DNA from: a virus
Taxonomy: Duplodnaviria > Heunggongvirae > Uroviricota > Caudoviricetes
Reading direction: 5' to 3' (one strand)
Length of the DNA stretch: 35,062 nt
Virus record (IMG/VR): IMGVR_UViG_2548876964_000015
Coordinates: 1 to 35,062 of that record
Shown here: piece after piece, positions 2,172 to 20,856 of the stretch
Layout of the letters: every line of letters begins with the position of its first letter
Position numbering within the stretch: the first letter of the stretch is position 1
Translations under genes and position numbers: made by a program
The notes under the pieces: generated by a model
Told to the model about the DNA's origin: nothing
What the model saw: only the letters and a program-made list of their open reading frames with translations
Databases searched by the model: none

Positions 2172-2198
2172 AAGCGTAAGCAAAATTGGCAGTAATCC

Positions 2199-4922: not shown

Positions 4923-4968
4923 TTCTATTCATATGATTGCGATTGTATTGATTTTTACGATACCGCTT

Positions 4969-5001
4969 ATTGCTCTAATAAATTTGATTTATTAGAGCAA
5001 A
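4969..5001. promoter_or_regulatory. Palindromic pair of C1-operator-like sites
   Basis: 4969-4985 ATTGCTCTAATAAATTT is a 17/17 match to the P1 C1 operator consensus as I recall it; an inverted 14/17 copy overlaps at 4985-5001, giving TTGCTCTAATAAAT-TTGA-TTTATTAGAGCAA. Confidence 0.7.
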
Positions 5002-5086
5002 TAAACTACCATCGAACGCCAGACTATTGATCTTCCTGTTGTTCAGGCTTATAGTTCCTACGTCGTAGTAAATTCTGCGACCGGGT

Positions 5087-5107
5087 TTGACAGCCTGAAT
5101 GTACATG
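5087..5107 (+). promoter_or_regulatory. Candidate antisense target pair a1/b1 (TTGACAG 5087-5093, GTACATG 5101-5107)
   Basis: Exact reverse complements of the two 7-mers inside the c4-like RNA (CTGTCAA 5225-5231, CATGTAC 5212-5218). Confidence 0.5.
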
Positions 5108-5113
5108 CGGACA

Positions 5114-5146
5114 ACCGCAGATATCCGATATTGCGGTATTTTTGTG
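5114..5146 (+). terminator. Hairpin followed by T-tract (terminator- or attenuator-like)
   Basis: ACCGCAGATAT-CCG-ATATTGCGGT stem with one bulge, then ATTTTTGTG. Confidence 0.35.
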
Positions 5147-5174
5147 TCCGTAAACCACGTTACGCCCGAATTAT

Positions 5175-5251
5175 GGTGGGGCGTGATGGGGAGGCTTCGG
5201 CCTGCTGGTTTCATGTACGCCAGTCTGTCAACCCCGTCACGTCCTGCCACC
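5175..5251 (+). ncRNA. c4: c4-like antisense repressor RNA candidate (77 nt)
   Basis: 5-prime GGTGGGGCGTGATGGGG can pair over about 17 bp (with G-U pairs) with 3-prime CCCCGTCACGTCCTGCC, leaving a 3-prime ACC tail; internal region exposes CATGTAC and CTGTCAA, complementary to repeats upstream (5087-5107) and downstream (5255-5290, the latter overlapping the icd ribosome-binding site). Confidence 0.55.
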
Positions 5252-5254
5252 TGT

Positions 5255-5290
5255 TTGACAGCGGGTAGCAGGTTGTTAAACCTGTACATG
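5255..5290 (+). promoter_or_regulatory. Candidate antisense target pair a2/b2 (TTGACAG 5255-5261, GTACATG 5284-5290)
   Basis: b2 lies immediately 5-prime of the GAGG Shine-Dalgarno of the 73-aa ORF starting at 5302. Confidence 0.5.
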
Positions 5291-5301
5291 AGGCCGTAAC
5301 T

Positions 5302-5523
5302 ATGGTTAATGCCAATCCTTGCGCACGCCCTGAATTTATCTGGCGCTTTTACTCCTGCCAGAAACGTCACTATCACTTCGTTATTGCACCGACAGAAGAT
5401 GAGGCTCGCTCTCAGCTTCCGGATGCACCCTGTATTTTCTCTGCCCGCTTTTCCACTTATTCACGCAATTCTCTCAGTTACTGGTGCCTCCCTGTTAACG
5501 CTTCTGCTCAGGAGGGACTATGA
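5302..5523 (+). CDS. icd: Small protein (73 aa) translationally coupled to the antirepressor; icd-like by position
   Basis: GAGG about 10 nt upstream of ATG; stop overlaps the ant ATG (ATGA). Position between c4-like RNA and ant matches the P1 immI layout as I recall it. Confidence 0.5.
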   Translation: MVNANPCARPEFIWRFYSCQKRHYHFVIAPTEDEARSQLPDAPCIFSARFSTYSRNSLSYWCLPVNASAQEGL

Positions 5524-6632
5524 GAACATCGTTAGTTACCCGTGAAGAGATGATCGAGGCAATTGAACAGCACACTGCCTGTATCAGTACCAGGGATATA
5601 CCTGGCGTTATTGCCAACTACTTCATGATCACCAAACAACTTTACCGGAGAAAGGACAAGAACGCGGTTCACCGTATCCTGTTGTCTGATATCCGCGAAT
5701 ACCTGCTCGAACAGGGTCATCTGAATTACGCAACCGTCGCAGCCGAAGCACGCAAGGAGGCACACAGAATGAAAGCAAATAACGTTAAATTAGAAAAAAT
5801 TCATGCACCTTCAGTTCAGGAATCGGAGCTGGTGGTTGTTCAGAATCAGTCTGATGAAATTCCCGTTCTGGAATGGCAGGGAGTACGTGTCGTGACAACC
5901 GAAACTCTTGCTAGAGGGTATGGGGTCGATGAAGCCAATATTCGCAACAATTTGTCTCGCAACCTTGACCGCTTTGAAGAAGGTAAGCATTACTTTCTTC
6001 TAACTGCTTTAAAATTAAGAGAATTTAAGAACAGAGTAACCGGAAGTTACTCTGTTGGTAAGAACGCCAGAAGCCTTACACTCTGGACAGAGCGCGGCGC
6101 TGCACGCATGTCTAAGATCGTGGACACAAATGAAGCATGGGCATTCTTTGAAAAACTGGAAGACAGCTACTTCCGGCAAAAAGAACAGCAACCGGTTGCA
6201 ATCCCCCAGACGCTTCCAGAAGCTCTGCGCCTGGCTGCCGAACTGGCTGAACAAAAGCAACTTCTGGAACAGAAAGCCCACCAGCTAAATCAGCAGCTGG
6301 TGGCCGCCGCTCCTAAGGTCGATTTTGCCGACCGGGTATCAGTAGCTAAAGGGATCCTGATTGGGAATTTTGCAAAGGTTGTTGGACTTAAGCAAAACGC
6401 GCTGTTTGCCTGGTTACGGGAGAACGGCATCCTGATAGCGTCCGGCGGACGTAAAAATGTGCCGTTTCAGCAGTACATAAACGCCGGATATTTCACGGTG
6501 AAAGAAGTGGTGCTGGATGATGAAGATGGCTACCAGATACGGTTGACGCCTCAATTAACGGGTAAAGGCCAGCAGTGGTTGACGCGTAAACTGCTCGATG
6601 CTGGCTTGTTAAAACCGGTGGCGGCTGAATAA
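5520..6632 (+). CDS. ant: Antirepressor (ORF6N/Bro-N-like middle domain plus KilA-C/Ant C-terminal domain)
   Basis: Strong SD GGAGGG; 370 aa; middle segment VLEWQGVRVVTTETLARGYGVD...FEEGKHYF and C-terminal DFADRVSVAKGILIGNFAKVVGLKQNALFAWLRENGIL are typical of phage antirepressors. Confidence 0.75.
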   Translation: MRTSLVTREEMIEAIEQHTACISTRDIPGVIANYFMITKQLYRRKDKNAVHRILLSDIREYLLEQGHLNYATVAAEARKEAHRMKANNVKLEKIHAPSVQESELVVVQNQSDEIPVLEWQGVRVVTTETLARGYGVDEANIRNNLSRNLDRFEEGKHYFLLTALKLREFKNRVTGSYSVGKNARSLTLWTERGAARMSKIVDTNEAWAFFEKLEDSYFRQKEQQPVAIPQTLPEALRLAAELAEQKQLLEQKAHQLNQQLVAAAPKVDFADRVSVAKGILIGNFAKVVGLKQNALFAWLRENGILIASGGRKNVPFQQYINAGYFTVKEVVLDDEDGYQIRLTPQLTGKGQQWLTRKLLDAGLLKPVAAE

Positions 6633-6639
6633 TGGAAGA

Positions 6640-6664
6640 ATGCCCGGTTGATGCCGGGCATAAT
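6640..6664. terminator. Bidirectional hairpin terminator between convergent ant and c1
   Basis: ATGCCCGG-TTGATG-CCGGGCAT followed by AATTTATT. Confidence 0.5.
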
Positions 6665-7516
6665 TTATTGCGCGCTTTCGGGGTTGTCGTTTACTGGCTG
6701 CCCCTTCTTGGTTTTACGGCTGCGCGCAACTGATGCGGCTGACTTAACCTTTTTCTCTTCGCGAGTGATGGCAATTTGTTTTTTTACATTTTCAATATCT
6801 GCCAGGCGATATATTTTTGCCTGCGGCCAGCGGTCGCAGATGATCGGTTCTATAGAGTCATAAAGGCTAAATTTTGCTTTCTCGAATTCACCGTTGATGA
6901 TGATTCCATCACGGAGAGTTTCATCGCAGATAAACACACCACACAGCGGCACATGGTAACTAACTGATTTACCATCATTGTAGTTAGGGCTACTGGAAAT
7001 GTAATGGACGCGCAGCATTGTTTCGCTAAAGCCGTGTACACGCATACGGAATTTTTCATCCTCCGGGTACTGCTTCATTAGCTCTTTTGTTGCTTCCAGG
7101 TTCTCTATGTATTTCGCACTGTGCTCATTGATCCCCGCGCTTTTCTGGATGCGAATGTCCTTATCAATCAGATGAATAATGCGGCCAGCGGTCATGTTGA
7201 CGCTGTTCACAGCTTCTGTCTGATAAGTTGTAACCTTACGCACACCGCGAAGGATGTTAGGCACTGGATATAAAATAGTCTTTGGGATATTGAGGTCTGG
7301 GTACTGTTCCAGTTCCCGCGCCATTAAAGTCCATTTATCAATTTCAGCCTGAATGCTGTCCGTTTCTTTGAACGGCAGAACGACAACCGGGCGTACAGGA
7401 CGACCGTCGCTGGCGGCATCAACGTGTTGGGCGCGTGCAACAGCTTTTTTTAGAAAGAGATCCCTGAAGCTGACGAACTCCTGGTACAGTTGTTCGCCGT
7501 AGACATAATTTATCAT
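6665..7516 (-). CDS. c1: C1 repressor of lysis (immC)
   Basis: 283-aa protein beginning MINYVYGEQLYQEFVSFRDLFLKK, matching my memory of P1 C1 over its length; strong SD GGAGGAGGA upstream. Confidence 0.9.
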   Translation of the reverse strand: MINYVYGEQLYQEFVSFRDLFLKKAVARAQHVDAASDGRPVRPVVVLPFKETDSIQAEIDKWTLMARELEQYPDLNIPKTILYPVPNILRGVRKVTTYQTEAVNSVNMTAGRIIHLIDKDIRIQKSAGINEHSAKYIENLEATKELMKQYPEDEKFRMRVHGFSETMLRVHYISSSPNYNDGKSVSYHVPLCGVFICDETLRDGIIINGEFEKAKFSLYDSIEPIICDRWPQAKIYRLADIENVKKQIAITREEKKVKSAASVARSRKTKKGQPVNDNPESAQ

Positions 7517-7539
7517 TGATCCTCCTCCAGAATTGACAT

Positions 7540-7580
7540 GGCCAACAACTCACAGCGGATTACACTGGGAGTTGTTGGCC
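7540..7580. promoter_or_regulatory. 12-bp perfect hairpin between coi and c1
   Basis: GGCCAACAACTC (7540-7551) pairs with GAGTTGTTGGCC (7569-7580), 17-nt loop. Confidence 0.4.
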
Positions 7581-7626
7581 ACCATTATAGAAGGATCCAA
7601 CGAAAATAATAGATTTATTAGTGCAT

Positions 7627-7836
7627 TTATTGTGAGTCTGGCTGGTTAGTGGCCATGAGATATTCGATTGTGTCAGTGAGATCATCCAGGTCGTCTTGGG
7701 TGATGCGGTACTCCTGATTGGATATCTTTGAGTAGTGTTCAGCAATGGCGCGGGCAGCGTCGGTTTCGGCAGGGTCTACAGATAAAGCGTTAGAGCAATG
7801 TCTAACGTCGTCGATGGTTGGTTGAATGAAAGCCAT
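7627..7836 (-). CDS. coi: Coi, C1 inactivator
   Basis: 69-aa acidic ORF immediately upstream of c1 on the same strand, as in P1 immC. Confidence 0.75.
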   Translation of the reverse strand: MAFIQPTIDDVRHCSNALSVDPAETDAARAIAEHYSKISNQEYRITQDDLDDLTDTIEYLMATNQPDSQ

Positions 7837-8074
7837 AATTATGCCTCACTGTATTGACAACACAGAGCCTGAAGCTCTGACCTACTGTTTCACCCATGAT
7901 CCATGCTGGGGTAATCTAACAACATTGCGCTGTGTGTAAGATGAGCAATGCATAGCTGTAATGCCGTTGTATAAGGTTTCCCTGTTTGCTCATTTCCTTC
8001 TGAGCCGCTCTACAACGCTGAAGACACATTAAATAGTGAATCCAAAGTCGTATTACGTAACGGCGGCAAAACTA

Positions 8075-8091
8075 TAATTTATTAGAGCAAT
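8075..8091 (-). promoter_or_regulatory. C1-operator-like site (16/17)
   Basis: TAATTTATTAGAGCAAT is the reverse complement of the operator consensus with one mismatch; lies upstream of coi. Confidence 0.6.
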
Positions 8092-8156
8092 TGTCAAACA
8101 ACTATGAAAAACAATCCAGTTTTTGGCTGGTGGAGTGGGATTTTCTCTCAAAATTT

Positions 8157-8173
8157 ATTGCTCTAATAATTCT
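8157..8173 (+). promoter_or_regulatory. C1-operator-like site (15/17)
   Basis: ATTGCTCTAATAATTCT. Confidence 0.5.
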
Positions 8174-8216
8174 TGATTTTTATGCGTAGCTGGACGTAAA
8201 CTCCTCTTCGGACCTA

Positions 8217-8250
8217 ATAACTTCGTATAGCATACATTATACGAAGTTAT
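8217..8250 (+). other. loxP site (Cre recombination target)
   Basis: Exact ATAACTTCGTATA-GCATACAT-TATACGAAGTTAT. Confidence 0.97.
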
Positions 8251-8322
8251 CTTAAGGGTTATTGAACATGATTAATTTACCTGTAAATCCATACAGTTCA
8301 ATACCTTATCAGGTCAAATAGT

Positions 8323-8407
8323 GATCACTTGATCATTTGATCAAGGTTGCGCTACGTAAAATCTGCGAAATGTTGGCAGTGTTAGTGCTCCAGATTTCGC
8401 GTAGCGC
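8323..8407. promoter_or_regulatory. Three GATC sites within 20 bp plus an imperfect inverted repeat
   Basis: TGATCACTTGATCATTTGATCA (GATC at 8323, 8331, 8339); GCGCTACG (8349-8356) pairs with CGTAGCGC (8400-8407), and AAATCTG with CAGATTT. Confidence 0.45.
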
Positions 8408-8439
8408 ACTTAGCACCACCAATCAATCAGAGGTGAAAA

Positions 8440-8661
8440 ATGGGATATTCAGCTGCTAAAGTGTCCACTCATCTTGAGCTTGAGAAAAACCGTGGTTACT
8501 GGCGGGCAAAATGGTTTGAGCGTGATAGTTACCAACTGTCATTATCTCGCGGTGAAGAGAAAATAGAACGCACGCGCGGTCGCTGGCGTTTCTATGACGA
8601 GAACCATAACCAGGTAAAGGCAGAGCCAATCCTGTACACTCTGCTGAAAACAATAATTTAA
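8440..8661 (+). CDS. Hypothetical protein (73 aa)
   Basis: ATG preceded by GAGGTG at about -10; no recognisable domain. Confidence 0.45.
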   Translation: MGYSAAKVSTHLELEKNRGYWRAKWFERDSYQLSLSRGEEKIERTRGRWRFYDENHNQVKAEPILYTLLKTII

Positions 8662-8680
8662 CTTGATCATGAGGTGATGA

Positions 8681-9076
8681 ATGTTTAATGGCCTGACAGA
8701 TGCCAAGGTAAACGCCTTACTGAACGACGCAAAACAAAAAGCTGCTAACCCTGGAACGAATGAAAATGAACGTGCTATGGCTGTTGCAATTTGGGAGTTA
8801 GCAGAAGAAGTAAAGCGAAACCGCTTACTATACACTCGGGTTTACCAGCAATTTGATGGTGCGAGCTGGATAGATATCGAAGAGGCTGAATATGCAACAT
8901 GCAAAAAAGAAAAAAAGATTGTTCGGATTTTGCATAAAGCAGCAACCCCAATCACTGTAGAAATCCCCGATCACAGATATTTCGAGAACGATGATCTACC
9001 AGGGGATGTGATTCGAATTATTGATGAGATACTTCATGAACAAGGCTTAACTGTTAAAATCACGCATAATAAATGA
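8681..9076 (+). CDS. Hypothetical protein (131 aa), translationally coupled to cre
   Basis: ATG preceded by GAGGTG; stop TGA overlaps the cre ATG (ATGA). Confidence 0.55.
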   Translation: MFNGLTDAKVNALLNDAKQKAANPGTNENERAMAVAIWELAEEVKRNRLLYTRVYQQFDGASWIDIEEAEYATCKKEKKIVRILHKAATPITVEIPDHRYFENDDLPGDVIRIIDEILHEQGLTVKITHNK

Positions 9077-10104
9077 CTAATTCGTTAACCGTTCACCAAA
9101 ATTTGCCTGCATTGCCGGTCGATGCAACGAGTGATGAGGTTCGCAAGAACCTGATGGACATGTTCAGGGATCGCCAGGCGTTTTCTGATCATACCTGGAA
9201 AATGCTTCTGTCCGTTTGCCGGTCGTGGGCGGCATGGTGCAAGTTGAATAACCGGAAATGGTTTCCCGCAGAACCTGAAGATGTTCGCGATTACCTTCTA
9301 TATCTTCAGGCGCGTGGTCTGGCAGTAAAAACTATCCAGCAACATTTGGGCCAGCTAAACATGCTTCATCGTCGGTCCGGGCTGCCACGACCAAGTGACA
9401 GCAATGCTGTTTCACTGGTCATGCGACGGATCCGAAAAGAAAACGTTGATGCCGGTGAGCGTGCAAAACAGGCGCTGGCGTTCGAACGCACTGATTTCGA
9501 CCAGGTTCGTTCACTCATGGAAAATAGCGATCGCTGCCAGGATATACGTAATCTGGCATTTCTGGGGATTGCTTATAACACCCTGTTACGTATAGCCGAA
9601 ATTTCTAGGATCAGGGTTAAAGATATCTCACGTACTGACGGTGGGAGAATGTTAATCCATATTGGCAGAACGAAAACGCTGGTTAGCACCGCTGGTGTAG
9701 AGAAGGCACTTAGCCTGGGGGTAACTAAACTGGTTGAGCGATGGATTTCTGTCTCTGGTGTAGCTGATGATCCGAATAACTACCTGTTTTGCCGCGTCAG
9801 AAAAAATGGTGTTGCCGCGCCATCATCCACCAGCCAGCTATCAACTCGCGCCCTGGAAGGGATTTTTGAAGCAACTCACCGATTGATTTACGGGGCAAAA
9901 GATGACTCTGGTCAGCGATACCTGGCCTGGTCTGGACATAGTGCCCGTGTCGGTGCCGCGCGAGATATGGCCCGCGCCGGAGTTTCAATACCGGAGATCA
10001 TGCAAGCTGGTGGCTGGACCAACGTAAATATTGTCATGAACTACATTCGTAACCTGGATAGTGAAACGGGGGCAATGGTGCGCCTGCTGGAAGATGGCGA
10101 TTAG
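9073..10104 (+). CDS. cre: Cre tyrosine recombinase
   Basis: 343 aa, MTNSLTVHQNLPALPVDATSDEVRKNLMDMFRDRQAF...; matches Cre essentially throughout from memory. Confidence 0.97.
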   Translation: MTNSLTVHQNLPALPVDATSDEVRKNLMDMFRDRQAFSDHTWKMLLSVCRSWAAWCKLNNRKWFPAEPEDVRDYLLYLQARGLAVKTIQQHLGQLNMLHRRSGLPRPSDSNAVSLVMRRIRKENVDAGERAKQALAFERTDFDQVRSLMENSDRCQDIRNLAFLGIAYNTLLRIAEISRIRVKDISRTDGGRMLIHIGRTKTLVSTAGVEKALSLGVTKLVERWISVSGVADDPNNYLFCRVRKNGVAAPSSTSQLSTRALEGIFEATHRLIYGAKDDSGQRYLAWSGHSARVGAARDMARAGVSIPEIMQAGGWTNVNIVMNYIRNLDSETGAMVRLLEDGD

Positions 10105-11272: not shown

Positions 11273-11308
11273 TAAATATATTATTTTTAATGATAAATGA
11301 TTGACAAC

Positions 11309-11335
11309 TGACAAGTGACTTCAGTCAGAATCATC
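11309..11335 (+). promoter_or_regulatory. Candidate late-promoter element upstream of mat
   Basis: TGACAAGTGACT; the same ACAAGTGA(C/T)T core occurs upstream of prt and of lyz. Confidence 0.4.
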
Positions 11336-11461
11336 ACACGCCCGGTACGGATGGATCCCTTTTCAAATATTCCATGGACGGCACAGTCTGAGTACCGGGC
11401 GCTACCTTCAGTTGTATTGCTAAGCCGCCGCTGGTGGCTTTTCTTTTTTGTAGGGGGCGCT

Positions 11462-12103
11462 ATGGATAAGAAAATATGCGTTGTTTCGATGAGCGTCGGC
11501 AAACCGGCGTCAATGACTGCTGCATGGATCAATAACGAGCTGATAATGGCTGAGCGGACCAGCTACCCTGAACGCCGCCGCGATATGGAACTCCAGCTGC
11601 TGCGCGAATTGCGAGAAAAAGAGGAAAAGGGTTTTATCGTGCTGGTGGAAGAGGAAAACAGCTTTATTACTGGTCGAGTTGGCCAGCGTGTAAGGTTGCG
11701 CGATCCCTTCATGAACGGCAGGCCGGTACTGATTGAAGCAATGCAGATTTACAAGGAGCTGGAACGCCAGAAAGCAATCAAGTTACCGCGCAAGGAATCC
11801 GGCAAATACATTCTCCACCAAAGCATCTTCGATTCCGAACACGATAAAAAAGGCGATGAATTTTTCAACATCAACTGGAGCGAAATAACGACAGAGCATG
11901 TTCTGACGTTACTATGTTGCTTTGCGACGGAATACAACAACGTTGCCAGCGCCGACTACATCAGGGCAATGGCTGGAGAAGTTGAGGCCCGCCAAGAACC
12001 ATCGTTACTAAGTCCACTGATTAACATAATTCTGGGCACCCAGATACTGGAACAAAAAAAAGTGCCGAAAGGGGTATTAACAGGCAAGCATAATTATTTT
12101 TAA
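11462..12103 (+). CDS. mat: Mat-like particle maturation protein (by position)
   Basis: ATG at 11462 has SD GGGGG; track ORF from 11315 starts at a GTG inside the promoter motif. Product assigned by gene order only. Confidence 0.55.
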   Translation: MDKKICVVSMSVGKPASMTAAWINNELIMAERTSYPERRRDMELQLLRELREKEEKGFIVLVEEENSFITGRVGQRVRLRDPFMNGRPVLIEAMQIYKELERQKAIKLPRKESGKYILHQSIFDSEHDKKGDEFFNINWSEITTEHVLTLLCCFATEYNNVASADYIRAMAGEVEARQEPSLLSPLINIILGTQILEQKKVPKGVLTGKHNYF

Positions 12104-12196
12104 CAATTACATACAGTAATTTTGTGGTTACATTCTCCATTGATTTTCTAACCGCTTTATCATTAGATGTAACAGCATGTAAATCATTTAAAATGG

Positions 12197-13333
12197 ATGA
12201 AAGCAATGGGGAATGAAGTTTATCAAAGTCAAAAATGCAAGTTGAAATATTCAAAATCTCAAATTGATAGGGCTGCTCAATTGATAAGGCACGGGTGTAG
12301 TGACGAAGAAAGGCAGCAATCTATTGAAATGATACAAAATTTCCGTGAGCTGCATCTTTATCCATTAATGCTCATGAAAAATCATTTAGCAAGAGCAGCT
12401 GCTAAGGTTGACAAGGACAAAAAGATTCTCGTTGCAAGAAGACTTAAGCGACTTTCTACCATAATAGATAAACTAGAGCGTCCTAGTCTTGATGGAGGCA
12501 GAACTAGCAATGCAATTAAATTAACACGGATGCAGGACGTTGGCGGATGTAGGGCCATTGTCAGAAACTTAGACCAGTTGATACAGCTAAAGGAACGTCT
12601 TTTAAAAAGCAAATCTGTTCATAGGATTGTTAAAGAGTATGATTATCTTACTCCCAAAGACAGCGGCTATAGTGGAATCCACCTTGCATACAGTTGCTTC
12701 GATCAGAAAGAGGATCAATATCCGTGGCGAAAAACAAAGATTGAGATACAGTTAAGAACTCAATTGCAGCATGCTTGGGCTACTAGCCTTGAAATAATTG
12801 ATACCCTTGAAGGTATCAAGCTGAAAACTTCAAGTGAAGGGCATCCAGAATGGAGACGATTTTTCTATCTAGCCGGATGTCTTGTAGCGCACGACGAAAA
12901 AGCCTGCACTCTTGATGAGCTAGTTGTATCTCAGTATGAAGGCGAGCTTAAAGAGCTGGAACGGACTTTATCTGTACGGAGGAAACTAAGCACATACACC
13001 ATCGCCTTAAATTTAACTTCTGACGCGAATTTGATTAAGAAGTTGCCAAAAAATCATAAGGGGCATTACTTAGTAACAATGAGAAATGCAGAAAACAAGC
13101 CCAATACAAAAAACAAAAAAATGTTCCTAGTGTCTGTTCGCGCATTTAAAACAAAAGAAGCAGATGAAGCCCTTGAGGCCTTAAATAAAGACGATTCTAA
13201 TCCTAATGTATTGATATCTGTTCTCGTTGCTACAGATAACATTAAGTCACTAAAAAAAGCCTACCCCAACTATTTTGGCTCAACAAACCAGTTTACAAAA
13301 TTCTTAGATAAGCATCTTCGTAACGAAGGATAG
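12197..13333 (+). CDS. RelA/SpoT-like nucleotide pyrophosphokinase, toxSAS-type with extra C-terminal domain (fused toxin-antitoxin candidate, CapRel-like)
   Basis: Synthetase-domain motifs visible: RMQDVGGCRAIV, KEYDYLTPKDSGYSGIHL, KIEIQLRTQLQHAWA. About 170 aa of unrecognised C-terminal sequence follow. Confidence 0.8.
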   Translation: MKAMGNEVYQSQKCKLKYSKSQIDRAAQLIRHGCSDEERQQSIEMIQNFRELHLYPLMLMKNHLARAAAKVDKDKKILVARRLKRLSTIIDKLERPSLDGGRTSNAIKLTRMQDVGGCRAIVRNLDQLIQLKERLLKSKSVHRIVKEYDYLTPKDSGYSGIHLAYSCFDQKEDQYPWRKTKIEIQLRTQLQHAWATSLEIIDTLEGIKLKTSSEGHPEWRRFFYLAGCLVAHDEKACTLDELVVSQYEGELKELERTLSVRRKLSTYTIALNLTSDANLIKKLPKNHKGHYLVTMRNAENKPNTKNKKMFLVSVRAFKTKEADEALEALNKDDSNPNVLISVLVATDNIKSLKKAYPNYFGSTNQFTKFLDKHLRNEG

Positions 13334-13341
13334 TTGCTTAA

Positions 13342-13366
13342 TTTTGCCCGGTAATTCCGGGCAAAA
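13342..13366. terminator. Bidirectional hairpin terminator
   Basis: TTTTGCCCGG-TAATT-CCGGGCAAAA, flanked by A/T on both sides, between convergent stops at 13333 and 13370. Confidence 0.6.
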
Positions 13367-13369
13367 TTG

Positions 13370-13618
13370 TCAATCTGCATTCAGGAGCAATGCGTTATCT
13401 ATGATGATCTGCTCCCATTCTTCGAATGCCCGATCGCGGACGCCCTGGGGAACACTGTTAGTTTTGAAATCGACCACCGTCCGCCATTTCCCGTCCGGGC
13501 GGTACATGCGCAGAGCTTTACTTCCCCCTTCCCTGCGCACCTCAACGTTATGCTTATCAGCAAACTCTTGTAATGCTCGTAGCGTCCCATGCTTTACTGT
13601 GTAGTATCGCTTTTTCAA
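13370..13618 (-). CDS. Small basic protein (82 aa); possibly the C1 co-repressor Lxc/Bof (tentative, by size and position)
   Basis: Start overlaps the stop of the upstream ORF (ATGA); 82 aa matches my recollection of P1 Bof length. Confidence 0.45.
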   Translation of the reverse strand: MKKRYYTVKHGTLRALQEFADKHNVEVRREGGSKALRMYRPDGKWRTVVDFKTNSVPQGVRDRAFEEWEQIIIDNALLLNAD

Positions 13619-14055
13619 GTTTTCTCTCCAGCCTGTGCCAAGGCTTCAACTTCCAAATCGTAAGACTCAAACTCATAGTCCTGGTCGTCAACTTCTTCAG
13701 GCACTGGCAGTAAATGCCAGGCTGAGTATATCTGACCATTATCAAAACGCTCCTGGCTGTAGAGCGTCGCGGCTATGAGCGTCAGCGCCGGGCGGTCATA
13801 ACGGTAAATTTTGCGAACGTCACGGTCAACGAGACGACCGAAATTACCATAACCGCGCTCCAGTAATAATTTTTTAATTTCCGGCCAGTATGGACCATAG
13901 CTGCGGTACAGGCGGGGATTTTTCAGTAATCGCCCGCGTAGCCCTGACAGGAAGAAATCAACGTATTCATCTTCTGTCTTTCCTAACAACGCTGTACGGA
14001 GTACCGCCTCAAGATATGTTTTATTCGGTTTTATTGTATCAGATAGTGTGGCCAT
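13615..14055 (-). CDS. Hypothetical protein (146 aa) downstream of darB
   Basis: Same strand as darB, 33 nt after its stop; coupled to the 82-aa ORF. Confidence 0.5.
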   Translation of the reverse strand: MATLSDTIKPNKTYLEAVLRTALLGKTEDEYVDFFLSGLRGRLLKNPRLYRSYGPYWPEIKKLLLERGYGNFGRLVDRDVRKIYRYDRPALTLIAATLYSQERFDNGQIYSAWHLLPVPEEVDDQDYEFESYDLEVEALAQAGEKT

Positions 14056-14088
14056 ATTATGCGACGCCCGGCGAACCGGGCGCTCCTG

Positions 14089-17000
14089 TTATGCGTATTG
14101 TTGGATGACGGCCAGAACGTCCGCCACGTTGTGTTTTGTCTCGATAATCCACCAGTTACCCGGGAAATCGCTGTTCTTCGCCTTCGCTGGCAGCCAGCGA
14201 GCGCCGAATTTCGCCTTGATTGCGTCTTTCGCACGGAAAAGAACGCCTTTCATGCCTGAGGCTTCCTGAAGCCCAAATACCTCGCCAGCGGCGAATTTTG
14301 GTGCATACATCATCTTCAGGTCGGCGGTGGATACGCGATAATTCAGACCAAGAGACTGAGCTATGCTGGTGGCATCACCCTGTATTGATGATAACTCTTC
14401 TTGTTTCTCGTTTCTGGCGGCAATTTCTTCCTCCGTGATGTTGCCTAGGGCCAGGTTTATCCGATCGGCGTCGGCCTGTTTCTCTTCATCGGTGCGCCCG
14501 GCAAGAACCGTGTTAATTCTCTGCAATATCTCAACATGATTCTTGCGCATGCTGAGTAATTCCGGCGTAACCTCGTTAAGGTCCACCAGCCCAAGGATGG
14601 CAAGGTCAGTAAACATTGATACCAGGTTGTAGGTCATGCGATAGCTGAGTTGGCCATAGGCTGATGGCAACTGCACCGCATCCATTTTATAGGCATCCAT
14701 AAATTTAGAGCCGTCGTTTACGACATCTGCAATTGCCGGTGTGATTTTTCCTGTTGTGGCGGCCTCCCTGATTGCTGTTACCCACGATTGAGTCAGCGCG
14801 GCGACTGCATGATTCAGATTGGCTTTCCGTTCTGCTGCGATGCGCGCGCTTGCTGCGTCCATTGCCTGCTTGATCTCGGCTTTATTGCTGTAAATGCCAA
14901 TGGTGCCAAACTGTGCTGTGGTGATCTCATAATCTGACGCCCGGAACTCATTGGTACCGAAAATGGCATTGGTGACTTCAAGTTCAGAATCCCCGTTACG
15001 AGTAGCCCCCTGGCTTGTTTTTTCCGGCATTCTGGCGATCGCATCCGCTATTTTCTCCTGAATTGCTTCAGGGGATAGCGTATCTCCGTATGACGCGATT
15101 ACATCGCCATAATTGGAGCCAAACAGTTCAACCAGGAATGTTTCTGCCGAACGGATCTGGCGGTTATTCCCTTCCGACATCATACCAAGCACCCATTTTG
15201 CAATTGACGACTTCAGCGCGCCGTCACGGCGATCCGGGTAAACCGCATGCTTCAGTGGGTCCGTATAGGTACCAACAAAATCAATGCTATAGCCTGACTC
15301 TGTAGTCTGAACGCCGTATGAGTCAGTGATTTTGATCATGCCGCGCTGCTGGAAACGGTAGAAATCGTCACAGGAAATGATGTCGTTAATCCCGGCGATG
15401 GAGACGCCACCACTGATTTTCTGCATAACAGCATCTTCATCAGGAGTTACATCAACCTGTTTATCCAGCGTCTTCACATCCCAGTTACCCGATTTGGTGC
15501 CTTTGAAGGTAAAGATGATCTCCACGTCTGCGCGCTGGCTGTCGAAGTCCAGCGACTTAATGCGAACGATATCACCGGCACAATCGTAGTATTGGCCTAC
15601 ACGCCATGAGCGATCGCCGATAACAAGGAACTCACTCGCATGGTTAACCAGATCAGGATCAACATCCAGAATGCCTTTATTTATTGCATCCTCCACCAGC
15701 GGGCGCAGGCGTTTGATATCCGTCGCGGCCTTCTGAGTACGGTTCAATAATTTCTCATAGCGGGAGATGGCCTGAGAGATATTAGCCTTGCGCTGAATGG
15801 CGCTTTTCAACGACGCGCGATACTGTGCTAACAACGTACGGTCTGTGTGATGGACGCTACCCCAGCGGGCTTTCCAGTCTGCGTTATCAGCTGCTTTGGC
15901 CATTACCGCCTGTTTGAATTTAGCTACCTCGGCGGTGGTCTTTTCAAGTTCCGCTTTGCTTCGCTCTAATTCAGCGGTAAGTACCTCCACATCCTCGCCT
16001 GCTGCGTGCTGCGCCTTGATGTAGTTCTGAAGGTCGATAGTAGCCTGTTCTTTCTGGCGAGCGCGTTGCGCGGCTTTCGCCTTATCCATTTGAACCTGCA
16101 TCATTGCCAGACGTTCGCCATCATCCTTAGCGGTATACATCTGCATTTCGATCATATCGTTGGCGTCGGCGTTCTCCATTTCTGACTTATCTGAACGGAG
16201 GATATCGGAGATCCAGCCTGCTTTACGCTTCAGCGTCTTCAGTCGGTATTCATCGAAAGAACCCTTGCCGCAGTAGTAGTGAACGCGAACGCTTGCACGG
16301 TTGGAACCAACTCGGGCACCGCGACCGTTACGCTGTGCGATACTGGCTGGTGTCCATGGCAACGTCAGATGATGGATGTCAGTCGTTCCTCGATGCAGGT
16401 TGATACCCACCTCTGCCTTTTTGTTGCAGATGATGATCGGAGTCCGGCCCTCCTGGAAGTCGGCAGCAATCTTTTCCAGCCCGCCCAGCGACATTTCATT
16501 TTGCTGCGCGATATAGGCGTCATACAGAGCCATTTGCTCGTTGTATTTCGCTATCTGTGCATCTGTTGGTTCATCCGGTAGCTCTTTCGGCGGTTTAACC
16601 GCTTTCAGTTTCTTACCGGTTTTACCTGCCTCGGCAACCGTCTGAGCATTCAGTATCCCCACCTTTGAAGGTTCAAGGTTAAGAGCATTGCAGATAATGC
16701 GCTTGAGCTTCTGGTGCTGCGTTTTTTCATCGGTGAAGATGATTTGCTTACCTTCCGGGAAAAACTCCTTCAGCGTGGCAATCAGCTTCGCGTATTTGGG
16801 CGTAACGGGGTGAGTTACGGTCTGTTCGTCAATGCCAAACCTGGCCAGGCGCTTATTCACTTCCTGCTCGAACGCTTCCGGAACCTGCAACTGAATAAAC
16901 TCGCCCTTATCTATCAGGGAGTATTGCGATTGCTGCGTGATTGAATCATCACTGTCGTCGTCTTCGCTGGTGGCTTGTTTAGGCAAACTGTCCGCCAGCT

Positions 17001-20000
17001 GCTGCACCGCATCTGCGTACTCCGGCAGGAAACGATAGGTGATCCGGCGATAGTACAGGTCCATGTCAGTACATACGCGGTCCATATCCCTGATTATTGA
17101 GAAGATCGGACGGGCTTTCTCGTGCTCAATCACGCCGTCTTCATTGACCGAGGTCGTTACGCCATTGTTGGCTTTGGCCGCCGCTTCCGCCTGCTGACGC
17201 AATTCTTCATACGCCGCCAGTTGTTCTTCAGTAAGTGGTGCATCCTGCTGGTGTTCGTCCAGCTCCGGGATCTCCACGGTATCCTTAACGTCTTCCGCCG
17301 TTTTAAGCGTTACCCAGCGATGGAATATACCGCGCAGCGCATCAAGGTTTTCAAAGCCCACCAGCGCCATTTTTTCTTCAACTTCACCGCTGATTTTCTG
17401 TACCGTTTCCAGCCTGGTCTTGCCGAAGAATTTAACGAAGTCATCAGGACCGTAGATCCCCATCTTCTGCCAGTATTCCTTCGGCAGAACATGAGAAAGC
17501 ATGTTGTATGCATCGATCGGGGTGTTAACGACTGGCGTTGCAGTCAGGAGAACCGGCCCGCGCCCGCCATTCTTTTTCATCAGGTACGCGTTTTTGATTG
17601 CCATATCCCGCGCCGATTGCGCCACCGCGCTGGTGGGCAGATAGGCCAGTTGTGACGCTTCGCGACCATTTTTATAGCTATTGCGGTAGTTGTGACCTTC
17701 GTCGGCGATCACACTATCGAAGCCCATATCCTCAAAGTACGGATACTTCTCTGCTTTTTCGGTACCGGTATCTGAATACTCCGACAATACCCAGCGACGC
17801 GCCGCCTCTTTACGATGGGAGTCGGAATCCATTGCGCTGGCTACGCGCCCGGCGGCAACGAAGTCATAAAGCATGTCTTGTGCATGCTCATCTACGGTGT
17901 CATCACGTAGCGGAATGCGGGCGTATTGTTCTTTGGTAAACACGACTGCACGGTAATTTGAGTGCGGGATCGCGTTCATCCGCGCCGTGATAGTGGCTTC
18001 ATCTGCCAGCTTAAGAGCATCGCGCATAACTGGAGTGCCATCAGTACCAAGAACAGGTTTACCGTTCTCATCGAGCACCGGCACCTGGCGAATCTGATCG
18101 CCATCCATCAGCACATCAAGACCGACGAACAGGTAGTTACTGAATGCCTCTTCACTCAGGAACTCTTTTGCTTCGTAATACCAGTTTTCCAGCACTGATT
18201 TAGGCACTACATAAGCAGTACGGGTGGAGCGACCGTTCTCATAGTTGAACGCCTCAAGCGCCAGCGCGGTCGTGGTTTTACCCAGCCCGGTGCCGAAGCC
18301 CAGGATGCCGCGCCCATCTTCGGACAGTCGGCGCACCTCGCTATTCTGGTAATCAAATGGCTGGCGCTTACCGCTTAATCCCTTCAACCCAAGCGGATCG
18401 CCAGAGTGTTCATACGGGATATTGCTATTGAACACATCGTTGTATTTGGCAACCAGCTCATCGTAGCGATCGTGCGTCTTTATCCACTTATTGAACTGGT
18501 CCTCAAGCAGTGCCATCTGCTCGCGGTAGCCGTTCGCCGTCGCGCTATCTTTGCCACCGATACGCGCACCATTGAGATACTTTTCCAGCTGTGCCGGGAA
18601 CCCGGTCGCGTTTTCACCTGATTTACGGTCCCACTCGTAGCGGATCTCACCTGTTTCTTTATCCTTGCGCTGGACGACACCGTATCGGTGCCCGACGAAC
18701 AGGCCATCACTACCGTGATAGGTGTCAGAAACCATTTCGTCGCCTTCCAGCTGCACTGACTGCACATAGCGCAGATCCGGATAGCCGTTTTCCTGCAAAA
18801 ATTCCAGAATGACGGAACGGTCGAACCAACGGCTATTGAGCTTAAAGCGGATATTCTCTGCTGGCGTCTTGATGCGCTTCTCTTCAATCGCTGCCAGCTG
18901 ATTAAGGACGTTGTTCTTTACTGGACCGTCGGGGAGTGTGGCAAGGAATTCCTGTTTTGGAGCCACTATCTCGTTAATGTCGCCGCTGGTGGCGCGGGCG
19001 AACGGAACAATCCCGCCATACTGTGAAACCGCAATGCCAGGGGTGCTGGCCAATAAATTAAGCAACTCGTCATCACTGGCTGGCAGTTCACCGGTAAACG
19101 CAAGGCGGAAATCATCGAGCTGGATTGGATCGCGAGTGAGATCACTGTAGAGATAACGCAGGGTGTCCTGATAGCTGGTGGAGTCATAACTGGCGCTGGA
19201 ATCATGCGTAACCAGCTTTCCTGTCAGCTCGTCAGAAATAGTGCCATCCAGCTTAATTGCACCACGGAAAGCAAACCAGGCGCGCGCACCGCTCCCCGAT
19301 AATTTCGCTATCGGACCGCGACCGGGGTTACCAAAACGATCAATCTCTGCCTGCAAACGGGATACCAGAGAAAGGCGCTGCTGTTCGATTTGTTCAGCAC
19401 TATGCCCGGCGGCCTTCATATCCTGATATTCAATTAACATCCGGCCAATCATCGCCCCGCGATACAAGCGTTCACGGTATTTTTCAGGCTGGCTGTTAAT
19501 CCAGTCCACCAGCTGCACCATATCGTCGCTGATTGATGTGGTGTACTTATCGCGGACATTTGCCATCTGGGTAAATGTCATGCCGAGACGGCCTTCTGTT
19601 GTAGTCAGGTTACGCTGAAGAGCCTCCCAGCTATCCGCGCCATAACTGGCAGCATCGATCTTAAGTTCCTTCCCGGCATCAGCTTCAATCCAGCGACCAC
19701 CAGCATATTTTTGCCATACGCCATTAATCAGGCGCATTTCCCCTTCACCAACAACGTCTGCTGTCGGTGACGGTTCAGCCATATCGAGCAAAGACCAGTC
19801 GATACGACTTTCGAAACGATGAATCAGCTTCGCTTTAAGAGCCTGGTTATCAATCTGCCCGTCGGCACGAACCTCAATACGCCCCTGGAATCCCTTCTCC
19901 TGGGTGCCATGAACAAACCGGCGGCCGTCCTTTTCAAACCACTTGCCAGAAATAAACGTTGGCCAAAGCACATTTGCCGATTCAAGAGTGCCTTCATCCA

Positions 20001-20856
20001 CCAGGGGGATTTTCTCAGCCATCTCCGCCGGATGTTTGCGCATCAGCACCACGTCAACGACCGTACTGGTCCCGTTTGCGTCAAAAGTACCGGTAGGCAA
20101 GCGGTGGGCACCAAGAAATTCAGCTTTACGGGATAGGCGCAGGCGCAACCGCTTCATGTTTGAACCTGAAACAATGGACGGCGGCACAATCACACACATG
20201 AATCCGCCTGGCTTTATCTTGTCCAGCATGCGGAGCATGAAGTAAGACCCCATATCCGTTTCTTCTGCGTAAGGCTTATCGATGTTGCGTGTGTTATCAC
20301 GACCGCCGAACGGAACGTTACCCACAACATGGTCGAATGAATCGTTAGGTGTGCTTATAGCCAGCTGTTCGAACGGGGAAATCTGTACGCTGTCTTCCGG
20401 ATGTAACAGCTGGTTTATACGACCGGAAACACTGCTGATCTCAGTCGCGGTCATCACCGTACCAACCGGTTTTGTCTCATTAAAAACGCCGGTGCCCGCC
20501 GATGGTTCCAGAGTGTTACCTACGTCCGCGCCATAGAGCTTCATGATCTCCCAGACGCCTTCAGCGATCGGCTTTGGTGTGTAATATTCGGAGACGGACC
20601 CGCCAATGCCACCTTCACCGGTGTACCCAGCCAGGATCTGGCGCTGTTCATCTGTCAGTGTCGCGCCGTCCACCAGCGAATTAAGCAAATCTATCGCCTT
20701 CTGATTCGCCTCCCGGCGCAGTCGGTCATAGCTTTTGCCTTCCACCTTTTCCACGCCGTATTTAATCGGCGCCCGGTGAGATGTTATTGCCCTAATGTAT
20801 TTCAATATTTCGCTGACACTTGAACAGCGAAACACCCCCATAGATAGCTTGTTCAT
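14089..20856 (-). CDS. darB: DarB, large methyltransferase-helicase anti-restriction protein
   Basis: Single 2255-aa ORF; N-terminal N6-adenine methyltransferase motifs (EPSAGTG, NVPFGG); helicase motifs (GLGKTTT, DEGHNYRN). Length matches P1 DarB as I recall. Confidence 0.93.
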   Translation of the reverse strand: MNKLSMGVFRCSSVSEILKYIRAITSHRAPIKYGVEKVEGKSYDRLRREANQKAIDLLNSLVDGATLTDEQRQILAGYTGEGGIGGSVSEYYTPKPIAEGVWEIMKLYGADVGNTLEPSAGTGVFNETKPVGTVMTATEISSVSGRINQLLHPEDSVQISPFEQLAISTPNDSFDHVVGNVPFGGRDNTRNIDKPYAEETDMGSYFMLRMLDKIKPGGFMCVIVPPSIVSGSNMKRLRLRLSRKAEFLGAHRLPTGTFDANGTSTVVDVVLMRKHPAEMAEKIPLVDEGTLESANVLWPTFISGKWFEKDGRRFVHGTQEKGFQGRIEVRADGQIDNQALKAKLIHRFESRIDWSLLDMAEPSPTADVVGEGEMRLINGVWQKYAGGRWIEADAGKELKIDAASYGADSWEALQRNLTTTEGRLGMTFTQMANVRDKYTTSISDDMVQLVDWINSQPEKYRERLYRGAMIGRMLIEYQDMKAAGHSAEQIEQQRLSLVSRLQAEIDRFGNPGRGPIAKLSGSGARAWFAFRGAIKLDGTISDELTGKLVTHDSSASYDSTSYQDTLRYLYSDLTRDPIQLDDFRLAFTGELPASDDELLNLLASTPGIAVSQYGGIVPFARATSGDINEIVAPKQEFLATLPDGPVKNNVLNQLAAIEEKRIKTPAENIRFKLNSRWFDRSVILEFLQENGYPDLRYVQSVQLEGDEMVSDTYHGSDGLFVGHRYGVVQRKDKETGEIRYEWDRKSGENATGFPAQLEKYLNGARIGGKDSATANGYREQMALLEDQFNKWIKTHDRYDELVAKYNDVFNSNIPYEHSGDPLGLKGLSGKRQPFDYQNSEVRRLSEDGRGILGFGTGLGKTTTALALEAFNYENGRSTRTAYVVPKSVLENWYYEAKEFLSEEAFSNYLFVGLDVLMDGDQIRQVPVLDENGKPVLGTDGTPVMRDALKLADEATITARMNAIPHSNYRAVVFTKEQYARIPLRDDTVDEHAQDMLYDFVAAGRVASAMDSDSHRKEAARRWVLSEYSDTGTEKAEKYPYFEDMGFDSVIADEGHNYRNSYKNGREASQLAYLPTSAVAQSARDMAIKNAYLMKKNGGRGPVLLTATPVVNTPIDAYNMLSHVLPKEYWQKMGIYGPDDFVKFFGKTRLETVQKISGEVEEKMALVGFENLDALRGIFHRWVTLKTAEDVKDTVEIPELDEHQQDAPLTEEQLAAYEELRQQAEAAAKANNGVTTSVNEDGVIEHEKARPIFSIIRDMDRVCTDMDLYYRRITYRFLPEYADAVQQLADSLPKQATSEDDDSDDSITQQSQYSLIDKGEFIQLQVPEAFEQEVNKRLARFGIDEQTVTHPVTPKYAKLIATLKEFFPEGKQIIFTDEKTQHQKLKRIICNALNLEPSKVGILNAQTVAEAGKTGKKLKAVKPPKELPDEPTDAQIAKYNEQMALYDAYIAQQNEMSLGGLEKIAADFQEGRTPIIICNKKAEVGINLHRGTTDIHHLTLPWTPASIAQRNGRGARVGSNRASVRVHYYCGKGSFDEYRLKTLKRKAGWISDILRSDKSEMENADANDMIEMQMYTAKDDGERLAMMQVQMDKAKAAQRARQKEQATIDLQNYIKAQHAAGEDVEVLTAELERSKAELEKTTAEVAKFKQAVMAKAADNADWKARWGSVHHTDRTLLAQYRASLKSAIQRKANISQAISRYEKLLNRTQKAATDIKRLRPLVEDAINKGILDVDPDLVNHASEFLVIGDRSWRVGQYYDCAGDIVRIKSLDFDSQRADVEIIFTFKGTKSGNWDVKTLDKQVDVTPDEDAVMQKISGGVSIAGINDIISCDDFYRFQQRGMIKITDSYGVQTTESGYSIDFVGTYTDPLKHAVYPDRRDGALKSSIAKWVLGMMSEGNNRQIRSAETFLVELFGSNYGDVIASYGDTLSPEAIQEKIADAIARMPEKTSQGATRNGDSELEVTNAIFGTNEFRASDYEITTAQFGTIGIYSNKAEIKQAMDAASARIAAERKANLNHAVAALTQSWVTAIREAATTGKITPAIADVVNDGSKFMDAYKMDAVQLPSAYGQLSYRMTYNLVSMFTDLAILGLVDLNEVTPELLSMRKNHVEILQRINTVLAGRTDEEKQADADRINLALGNITEEEIAARNEKQEELSSIQGDATSIAQSLGLNYRVSTADLKMMYAPKFAAGEVFGLQEASGMKGVLFRAKDAIKAKFGARWLPAKAKNSDFPGNWWIIETKHNVADVLAVIQQYA

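What the first reader, a model, noticed from the sequence alone, without database searches (positions are those of the whole stretch)
12104..13369. RelA/SpoT-like toxSAS gene occupies the slot where P1 carries its res/mod restriction genes
Between the mat-like gene and the lxc/darB block, where P1 has the EcoP1I res and mod genes, this element has a single 378-aa gene with clear (p)ppGpp-synthetase-fold motifs (DVGGCRAIV, DYLTPKDSGYSGIHL, EIQLRTQLQHAW) and an unrecognised C-terminal domain of about 170 aa, closed off by a bidirectional terminator. No methyltransferase or restriction ORF is present in the slot. Small alarmone synthetase toxins fused to a sensing/antitoxin domain are known anti-phage abortive-infection effectors (CapRel-type), and I recall one being described from a P1-like Salmonella prophage, so this is a strong defence-island candidate; the C-terminal sensor specificity would be the new part.
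Basis: partly seen in the sequence, partly recalled or inferred. Interest (0 to 1): 0.8.

Follow-up and report, generated by a model that had tools for sequence, protein, structure and literature searches.

The report
CapRel anti-phage toxin in P1-like plasmid
The gene is an intact, untested variant (74% identical) of CapRelSJ46, a well-studied single-protein anti-phage toxin-antitoxin, sitting in the same variable slot of a P1-like E. coli phage-plasmid where P1 keeps its restriction genes; it is a real defence gene of an already known kind.

Summary
One intact + strand gene fills the gap between mat and lxc, where P1 carries res/mod. All three quoted motifs are present.

The protein aligns end to end with the solved CapRelSJ46 structure (7ZTB/9ERV, E 5e-185; 74% identity), and phage SJ46 carries its gene in the same slot. 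Every residue shown experimentally to matter for catalysis (R79, R116, Y155) or self-inhibition (A77, V338, L339, A341, A351, Y352, Y355) is conserved. The C-terminal part is therefore a known domain: the pseudo-zinc-finger antitoxin/sensor with its anchors.

What is specific here:
- The sensor region is only 63% identical to SJ46 (53% over residues 286-330).
- The two alleles are 69% identical in DNA, inside flanks that are 95-100% identical, which indicates a cassette swap.
- This allele occurs in 83 of 5,426 complete E. coli genomes, against 14 for the SJ46 allele.
- It is not one of the four CapRels tested in 2022.

The "bidirectional terminator" is a real 13-bp hairpin but has no T-tract on either strand.

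Verdict: new member of a known kind, modest interest.

The parts
11462..12103 (+). mat (maturation control), the left flank of the slot. Its last ~100 nt (from about 12000) already belong to the variable segment.
   Evidence: RefSeq CDS coordinates. P1 mat matches at 94-96% identity. Identity to SJ46 drops from 97% to 80% at 12000-12100.
12104..12205 (+). 102-bp upstream region. Candidate weak promoter: TTGATT at 12140-12145, 17-nt spacer, TTAGAT at 12163-12168. SD-like GGATGA at 12194-12199, ahead of the ATG at 12206.
   Evidence: Read from the sequence. The TTGATT block and the hexamer position are conserved in the SJ46 upstream region. The consensus promoter scan does not call it, so this is inference. 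In SJ46, 100-200 bp of upstream DNA sufficed for native expression (PMC9712102).
12206..13333 (+). capRel allele: a fused toxSAS toxin-antitoxin of 375 aa (WP_000526244.1). The longest ORF starts at 12197 (378 aa).
12440..12784 (+). Core of the toxSYNTH (RelA/SpoT nucleotidyltransferase) domain. It contains R79, R116 and the G-loop Y155 (codon 12668-12670).
   Evidence: Pfam PF04607 covers residues 82-196 of the 378-aa ORF.
13022..13330 (+). C-terminal antitoxin/sensor region (residues 273-375): end of anchor-1, the pseudo-ZFD (strands 286-294, 307-315, 335-342; helix 316-330), and anchor-2 with the YXXY motif (Y353-P-N-Y356, nt 13262-13273).
   Evidence: Alignment to 7ZTB, secondary structure of the AF2 model and Foldseek top hits 9ERV/7ZTB. 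This is the least conserved part of the protein.
13339..13369 (.). Perfect 13-bp hairpin with a 5-nt loop between the convergent capRel and lxc genes. A possible non-canonical terminator.
   Evidence: Fold z about -4.2 on both strands. No T-tract and not called by the scan. Every other cargo version of the slot has a different hairpin at this position.
13370..14055 (-). lxc (13370-13618) and ulx (13615-14055), the conserved right flank, followed by darB (14089-20856).
   Evidence: Identity to P1, RCS47 and SJ46 is 97-100% from 13370 onward.

Best explanation
The gene encodes a functional CapRel-type fused toxin-antitoxin that defends the lysogen, and the resident P1-like phage-plasmid, against other phages by abortive infection.

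Inferred mechanism, by homology to CapRelSJ46:
1. In uninfected cells the C-terminal pseudo-zinc-finger domain folds back on the N-terminal toxSYNTH domain. The YPNY (YXXY) turn sits between R79 and R116 and blocks the ATP site.
2. During infection a newly made phage protein binds the pseudo-ZFD and anchors and holds the protein open. For SJ46 the known triggers are a major capsid protein and Gp54 of Bas11.
3. The toxSYNTH domain then pyrophosphorylates the 3' end of tRNAs, translation stops, and the infected cell yields few or no phage.

Shown here: the gene is intact, its architecture is conserved full-length, every experimentally defined catalytic and autoinhibitory residue is kept, it sits in the defence slot, and it is maintained in the population. 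Inferred: enzymatic activity, toxicity, protection, and the identity of the trigger. The trigger may differ from SJ46's because the sensor region is the most diverged part.
For: - Sequence match: Pfam RelA_SpoT 3e-12. PADLOC defence candidate PDC-S33, full length, 6.7e-86. PDB 7ZTB/9ERV (CapRelSJ46) E 5e-185 over residues 4-374. BLASTP 74% identity, 87% positives, one 1-aa gap.
- Conserved residues: A77, R79, R116, Y155, V338, L339, A341, A351, Y352 and Y355, plus L280 and L307. Their roles are defined in PMC9712102.
- Structure: the AF2 model has pLDDT 83.7 and pTM 0.81, with the expected three-stranded sheet plus helix. Its best PDB matches are 9ERV and 7ZTB (E 7e-40, TM 0.69-0.75).
- Family pattern: the toxSYNTH domain is conserved (0.74 bits entropy) and residues 270-331 are variable (about 2.1 bits). 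This is the pattern published for CapRel.
- Position: same slot as in SJ46. In other P1-like phages the slot carries type III R-M, DUF2971/PDC-S31, PIN/PDC-S34 or nothing.
- Maintenance: the allele is kept at 99-100% nt identity in 52 PLSDB plasmids and 83 complete E. coli genomes.
- Literature: CapRel is noted as common on E. coli P1-like phage-plasmids.
Against: Nothing here contradicts it, but no function was measured for this allele. I found no paper naming WP_000526244, and it is not one of the four CapRels tested in 2022. No consensus sigma-70 promoter is called upstream. One phage record (vB_EcoM-673R5) carries the allele split into two CDS, so it can be lost or mis-sequenced. Three residues at the SJ46-Gp54 interface differ (K269N, S279K, R314K), and the beta6-beta7 loop is rebuilt with a 1-aa insertion. 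The known SJ46 triggers therefore cannot be assumed.
Confidence: 0.9

Rival explanations
1. It is a metabolism-targeting alarmone synthetase toxin. It would make (p)ppGpp or (p)ppApp, as FaRel or GRel/Pag1B do, rather than act as a tRNA pyrophosphokinase.
For: The only Pfam/NCBIfam hits are generic (p)ppGpp-synthetase families. Other toxSAS subfamilies do work this way (PMC9712102; bioRxiv 2026.04.06.716658).
Against: The N-terminal 200 residues are 79% identical to CapRelSJ46, for which tRNA pyrophosphorylation was shown biochemically (PMC9712102). Housekeeping SAS structures match only at E 1e-5 to 1e-8 and 20-25% identity.
Confidence: 0.04
2. It is a plasmid-addiction or otherwise selfish toxin-antitoxin module, or a decaying remnant, with no role in phage defence.
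For: It is formally a toxin-antitoxin system on a low-copy phage-plasmid. One related phage record shows a disrupted copy.
Against: - Toxin and antitoxin are one polypeptide, so differential decay after plasmid loss cannot operate.
- The element already has phd/doc for addiction.
- The ORF is intact and nearly invariant in 83 genomes.
- The close homologue SJ46 protects E. coli 10- to 1,000-fold against several phages.
- The slot is otherwise filled by defence genes.
Confidence: 0.04
3. It has the same protein family and mechanism, but serves the prophage's own life cycle. For example, it would be triggered by, or tuned to, the P1-like element's own late proteins because it lies just downstream of mat, rather than sensing foreign phages.
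For: There is no recognisable terminator between mat and capRel, and no strong promoter of its own, so read-through from Pmat/LPmat is conceivable (P1 annotation).
Against: Self-triggering would abort the element's own lytic growth. SJ46 CapRel was active from its own 100-200 bp upstream region, and that region is partly conserved here. There is no direct evidence for this reading.
Confidence: 0.02

Closest known systems
CapRelSJ46 (Salmonella phage SJ46 gp058; PDB 7ZTB, 9ERV; Zhang et al. Nature 2022 and 2024)
   Same: Same fused architecture and length (375 vs 373 aa), with 74% identity overall and 79% in residues 1-200. All tested catalytic and autoinhibitory residues are conserved, as are L280 and L307. 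It occupies the same mat|lxc slot of a P1-like (Punavirus) backbone whose flanks are 95-100% identical.
   Different: The sensor segment 270-339 is 63% identical, falling to 53% over 286-330. There is a 1-aa insertion and extra lysines in the beta6-beta7 loop, plus K269N, S279K and R314K. DNA identity is only 69% and synonymous sites are saturated, so this is an old allele swapped in as a cassette, not a recent variant. It is about 6 times commoner than the SJ46 allele in complete E. coli genomes (83 vs 14). Its trigger is unknown.
CapRelEbc, CapRelKp, CapRelEcHT (other tested fused CapRels, PMC9712102)
   Same: Same family. These proteins show that alleles about 70% identical, with divergent pseudo-ZFDs, protect against different phages (T7, SECphi18, Bas8).
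   Different: None of them is this allele. The EcHT gBlock encodes MGNEVYESQKCTLKY... and has an unrelated upstream region. Ebc has its G-loop Tyr at position 153, not 155. I could not retrieve the full Ebc and Kp sequences for a direct alignment.
EcoP1I type III restriction-modification (P1 res/mod)
   Same: It occupies the same mat|lxc slot in P1 and also protects the lysogen against incoming phage DNA.
   Different: It is unrelated in sequence and mechanism and is encoded on the opposite strand. No res- or mod-like ORF is present in the window's slot.
Bicistronic toxSAS TA systems (PhRel/ATphRel of mycobacteriophage Phrann; FaRel2/ATfaRel2)
   Same: Same toxSYNTH fold, tRNA-targeting or alarmone toxins, prophage-encoded superinfection exclusion.
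   Different: In those systems the antitoxin is a separate gene. Here it is fused, and no neighbouring small antitoxin ORF exists.

Membership tests
CapRel (fused toxSAS toxin-antitoxin) | N-terminal RelA/SpoT-type nucleotidyltransferase (toxSYNTH) domain | tested here: met
   Pfam PF04607, E 3e-12, 47 bits against a 27-bit cut-off. SAS structures also match.
CapRel (fused toxSAS toxin-antitoxin) | Catalytic residues: G-loop Tyr (Y155) and the ATP-stacking arginines R79 and R116 | tested here: met
   All three are identical in the pairwise alignment to CapRelSJ46 and invariant in 62 homologues.
CapRel (fused toxSAS toxin-antitoxin) | Single ORF with a C-terminal pseudo-ZFD antitoxin domain (three-stranded sheet plus helix) joined by helical anchors | tested here: met
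   Collinear full-length alignment to 7ZTB. The AF2 model shows strands 286-294, 307-315 and 335-342 and helix 316-330. Foldseek top hits are 9ERV and 7ZTB.
CapRel (fused toxSAS toxin-antitoxin) | YXXY autoinhibitory motif and docking-interface residues (A77, V338, L339, A341, A351) | tested here: met
   Y353-P-N-Y356 and all five interface residues are conserved. A352, Y353, P354 and N355 are invariant in the family.
CapRel (fused toxSAS toxin-antitoxin) | N-terminal fragment toxic and neutralised by the C-terminal fragment | not testable with these tools
   Needs expression of residues 1-272 and 273-375. This was shown only for SJ46.
CapRel (fused toxSAS toxin-antitoxin) | Pyrophosphorylation of tRNA 3' ends that blocks translation | not testable with these tools
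   Biochemical assay. Inferred from 79% identity of residues 1-200 to SJ46.
CapRel (fused toxSAS toxin-antitoxin) | Phage protection by abortive infection, triggered by direct binding of a phage protein to the pseudo-ZFD | not testable with these tools
   I found no experimental data for this allele.
Variable defence slot of P1-like phage-plasmids (mat|lxc) | Conserved flanks with alternative cargo in related elements | tested here: met
   Flanks are 94-100% identical to P1, RCS47, SJ46 and others, while the cargo differs: res/mod+IS5, two capRel alleles, DUF2971/PDC-S31, PIN/PDC-S34, EAL+AraC, or empty.
Type III restriction-modification (EcoP1I-like) | res helicase-nuclease and mod methyltransferase genes | tested here: not met
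   The slot holds only the capRel ORF, and PADLOC and Pfam give no R-M hit for it.
Intrinsic (bidirectional) terminator | GC-rich hairpin followed by a T-tract on each transcribed strand | tested here: inconclusive
   The hairpin is strong, but the tails are AAAATTG and AAAATTA, and the scan does not call it.

The most novel reading that the evidence does not exclude
This allele is the predominant CapRel of E. coli P1-like phage-plasmids. Because its pseudo-ZFD is rebuilt (53% identity over residues 286-330, an altered beta6-beta7 loop, and changes at three Gp54-contact positions), it may sense a different set of phage proteins than CapRelSJ46 does. The two alleles, in otherwise near-identical backbones, would then form a natural allelic series for mapping how sensor sequence sets trigger specificity.
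Probability: 0.5. Interest if true: 0.35.

Novelty: new member of a known kind. Interest (0 to 1): 0.25.

Why it matters
It confirms that the mat|lxc interval of P1-like phage-plasmids is an exchangeable defence slot. It also identifies the commonest CapRel allele of E. coli, present in about 12% of P1-like elements in complete genomes, as one that has not been characterised. Testing it against phage panels, and swapping its sensor with that of SJ46, would be a cheap way to extend the known rules of capsid/trigger recognition. It does not open a new mechanism.

Tried and rejected
- dN/dS between this allele and SJ46 could not be computed because synonymous sites are saturated (pS about 0.85). 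Only dN is usable: 0.32 in the sensor against 0.14 in the N-terminal part.
- The consensus promoter scan found nothing in the 102-bp upstream region. The promoter I propose is a weak, hand-read candidate.
- The terminator scan did not call the hairpin.
- I checked whether CapRelEcHT of Zhang 2022 is this allele. It is not.
- A literature search for WP_000526244 returned nothing.
- I considered a separate antitoxin gene; no candidate ORF flanks the gene.
- I considered an R-M remnant in the slot; there is none.
- The AF2 model superposes on the crystal structures with a high global rmsd (9-10 Å). I attribute this to a closed (model) versus open (crystal) state, as reported for SJ46, but could not inspect coordinates to confirm it.
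- I did not use the search of protein representatives or metagenome scans. The family is already well populated (488 hits at E<=1e-20).

Full report
**What is there**

The window is a P1-like phage-plasmid. It contains cre, c8, ref, mat, lxc, ulx and darB in P1 order. From base 5329 to about 34,600 it is 100% identical to plasmid p08_4347-1 of E. coli O111:H8 (NZ_CP077546.1); the alignment then continues to the window's end at lower identity (99.9% over 5329-35062).

Between mat (ends 12103) and the convergent lxc (13370-13618, - strand) there is a single substantial ORF, 12197-13333 on the + strand. The slot has 36-42% GC against about 50% around it.

RefSeq starts the protein at the second ATG, 12206, giving 375 aa (WP_000526244.1). 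That start corresponds to Met1 of the SJ46 protein and to the conserved Met of 62 homologues. It is preceded by a GGATGA Shine-Dalgarno-like element. I take 12206 as the start.

**Replacement of res/mod**

In P1 the mat-lxc interval (3469-9749) holds res, mod and an IS5. BLAST of window 11300-14100 against P1 aligns 11300-12104 at 94% and 13372-14100 at 97%, with nothing in between.

The same slot differs among P1-like phages:
- RCS47: empty, with 39 bp between mat and lxc.
- MH422554: an unannotated 346-aa DUF2971 protein that hits PADLOC PDC-S31.
- JL22: a PIN-domain protein with a PDC-S34 hit.
- vB_EcoM-Ro157c2YLVW: an EAL protein plus an AraC-type regulator.
- Salmonella phage SJ46: a RelA/SpoT family gene.

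The interval is therefore an exchangeable cargo slot, mostly filled by defence or defence-candidate genes.

**Identity of the gene**

- Pfam gives RelA_SpoT (E 3e-12, residues 82-196).
- PADLOC gives a full-length match to the defence candidate PDC-S33 (E 6.7e-86).
- Against the PDB the protein aligns from residue 4 to 374 with 7ZTB and 9ERV, the crystal structures of CapRel from Salmonella phage SJ46 (E 5e-185).
- BLASTP to SJ46 gp058 gives 74% identity and 87% positives with one single-residue gap.

CapRelSJ46 is a fused toxin-antitoxin. Its C-terminal pseudo-zinc-finger domain autoinhibits the N-terminal toxSYNTH domain. Binding of a phage major capsid protein, or of Gp54 of Bas11, opens the protein. 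It then pyrophosphorylates tRNAs and aborts the infection (PMC9712102; PMC11578894).

I mapped the residues defined by mutagenesis in those papers onto the window protein.
- Conserved: the ATP-stacking R79 and R116; the G-loop Y155; the docking-interface residues A77, V338, L339, A341 and A351; the YXXY motif (Y352, Y355); and L280 and L307, which are needed for capsid sensing.
- Partly conserved Gp54 contacts: L270, D273, N275, L276, K278 and K316 are kept, while K269N, S279K and R314K differ.

An AlphaFold2 model built on 62 homologues has mean pLDDT 83.7 and pTM 0.81. It shows the expected C-terminal three-stranded sheet (286-294, 307-315, 335-342) with a connecting helix (316-330), followed by short helices around YPNY. 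Foldseek returns 9ERV and 7ZTB as top hits (E about 1e-39, TM 0.69-0.75), well ahead of the housekeeping small alarmone synthetases. The large global rmsd fits a closed model against open crystal forms, as described for SJ46, but I could not verify this from coordinates.

**What distinguishes this allele**

Identity to SJ46 is 79% over residues 1-200. It is 63% over 270-339, the segment whose exchange changed phage specificity in the 2022 chimera, and falls to 53% over 286-330. The beta6-beta7 loop is rebuilt (RNAENKPNTKNKKMF against RNAITK-NGKDTGKF).

Across 36 family members, column entropy is 0.74 bits in toxSYNTH, about 2.1 bits in 270-331, and about 1.0 bit again around YXXY. This is the published conserved-toxin, variable-sensor pattern.

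At the DNA level the two alleles are only 68.6% identical and synonymous sites are saturated (pS about 0.85). Non-synonymous divergence is 0.32 in the sensor against 0.14 in the N-terminal part. The flanks are 95-100% identical. The breakpoints lie at about 12000, inside the 3' end of mat, and at the lxc stop codon. The two alleles were therefore exchanged as cassettes from an older gene pool; they did not diverge in place.

**Distribution and prior knowledge**

- The allele is 99-100% identical in 52 PLSDB plasmids, all Escherichia and mostly 92-100 kb.
- It is in 83 of 5,426 complete E. coli genomes. The P1-type lxc-ulx flank occurs in 699 genomes and the SJ46 allele in 14.
- Its 90% cluster holds 313 member sequences, against 122 for the SJ46 cluster.
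- It is everywhere annotated only as 'RelA/SpoT domain-containing protein'.
- A 2025 survey states that E. coli P1-like phage-plasmids commonly carry CapRel (bioRxiv 10.1101/2025.09.12.675607).
- The 2022 paper tested four CapRels: SJ46, Ebc, Kp and EcHT. The EcHT synthetic gene in its supplement encodes a different N-terminus and has an unrelated upstream region.
- No paper in the library mentions WP_000526244.

As far as I can tell, this specific allele is uncharacterised.

**Regulatory elements**

The 102-bp upstream region aligns with that of SJ46. Both share a TTGATT block, 17 nt, then TTAGAT here and TTATAT in SJ46. The consensus scan calls no promoter, so this remains a weak candidate. 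In SJ46, 100-200 bp of upstream DNA gave native expression.

Downstream, 13339-13369 folds into a perfect 13-bp hairpin (z about -4.2 on either strand). The stem is followed by A-runs on both strands and is not called as a terminator. Each alternative cargo brings a different hairpin to this position, which suggests that a structure separating the convergent transcripts is needed. The 'bidirectional terminator' label is not established.

**Verdict**

The gene is a member of the CapRel family by every sequence and structure criterion I could test. Its biochemical and phage-protection criteria remain untested.

It is a new member of a known kind. The mechanism, the fold of the C-terminal domain, the slot and the association with P1-like elements are all already described. 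The open question is which phage protein(s) this commoner allele senses. Interest is modest, at 0.25.

Noticed in passing
window 6-252 and 2199-2274: There is a tRNA gene cluster: Asn(GTT), Tyr(GTA, 86-172, long variable arm) and Thr(TGT), plus Ile(TAT) further on. From memory, P1 is described with three tRNAs (Asn, Thr, Ile), so the Tyr gene may be an extra. I did not check this against the P1 record.
   Followed up: no
window 8681-9076 (+): An extra 131-aa ORF lies between cra (8440-8661) and cre (9073-10104) and overlaps the cre start codon. It has no Pfam or PADLOC hit. It is absent from P1 and from p266917_2_02, where cra abuts cre. The preceding region is AT-rich (38% GC at 8001-8500).
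   Followed up: partly
window 1-5328: The left 5.3 kb carries the tRNAs, an SPFH/Band-7 protein (1344-2171), a DnaB-like helicase (Ban, 2830-3924), a glycosyltransferase-like ORF (3924-4922), and the c4-a1b1 target and C4 antisense RNA (5049-5254). It is not collinear with the otherwise identical plasmid p08_4347-1, which has doc/lpa/pacA/pacB there. The junction at 5329 falls in icd, so the immI module runs straight into ant and then c1. This suggests recombination between two icd-ant copies.
   Followed up: partly
window 23693-24901 (-): An IS605-family TnpB (RNA-guided endonuclease; OrfB_IS605 plus Cas12f1-like TNB domains) is inserted between the head-processing gene and the lysozyme gene.
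   Followed up: no
window 34645-35062 (+): The start of an IS3-family IS1203 transposase, with its ALIL frameshifting pseudoknot (34930-35049), is cut by the window end.
   Followed up: no
L001 (phage vB_EcoM-673R5) 3904-5003: The same capRel allele (the 2.8-kb mat-capRel-lxc-ulx region, window 11300-14100, is 99.4% identical in nt) is annotated as two CDS (3904-4452 and 4461-5003). That means a frameshift or stop, from either inactivation or a sequencing error.
   Followed up: no
L006 (Punavirus MH422554) 1402-2442 (-): An unannotated 346-aa ORF in the mat|lxc slot has a DUF2971 domain and hits to PADLOC candidate PDC-S31. JL22 carries a PIN-domain protein (PDC-S34 hit) in the same slot. Both are further untested defence candidates in this hotspot.
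   Followed up: partly
window 12000-12103 (3' end of mat): The last ~100 nt of mat diverge together with the cargo: 80% identity to SJ46 against 97-99% upstream, and the sequence differs in every cargo type. The recombination boundary therefore lies inside the mat coding sequence, and Mat C-termini are mosaic.
   Followed up: partly
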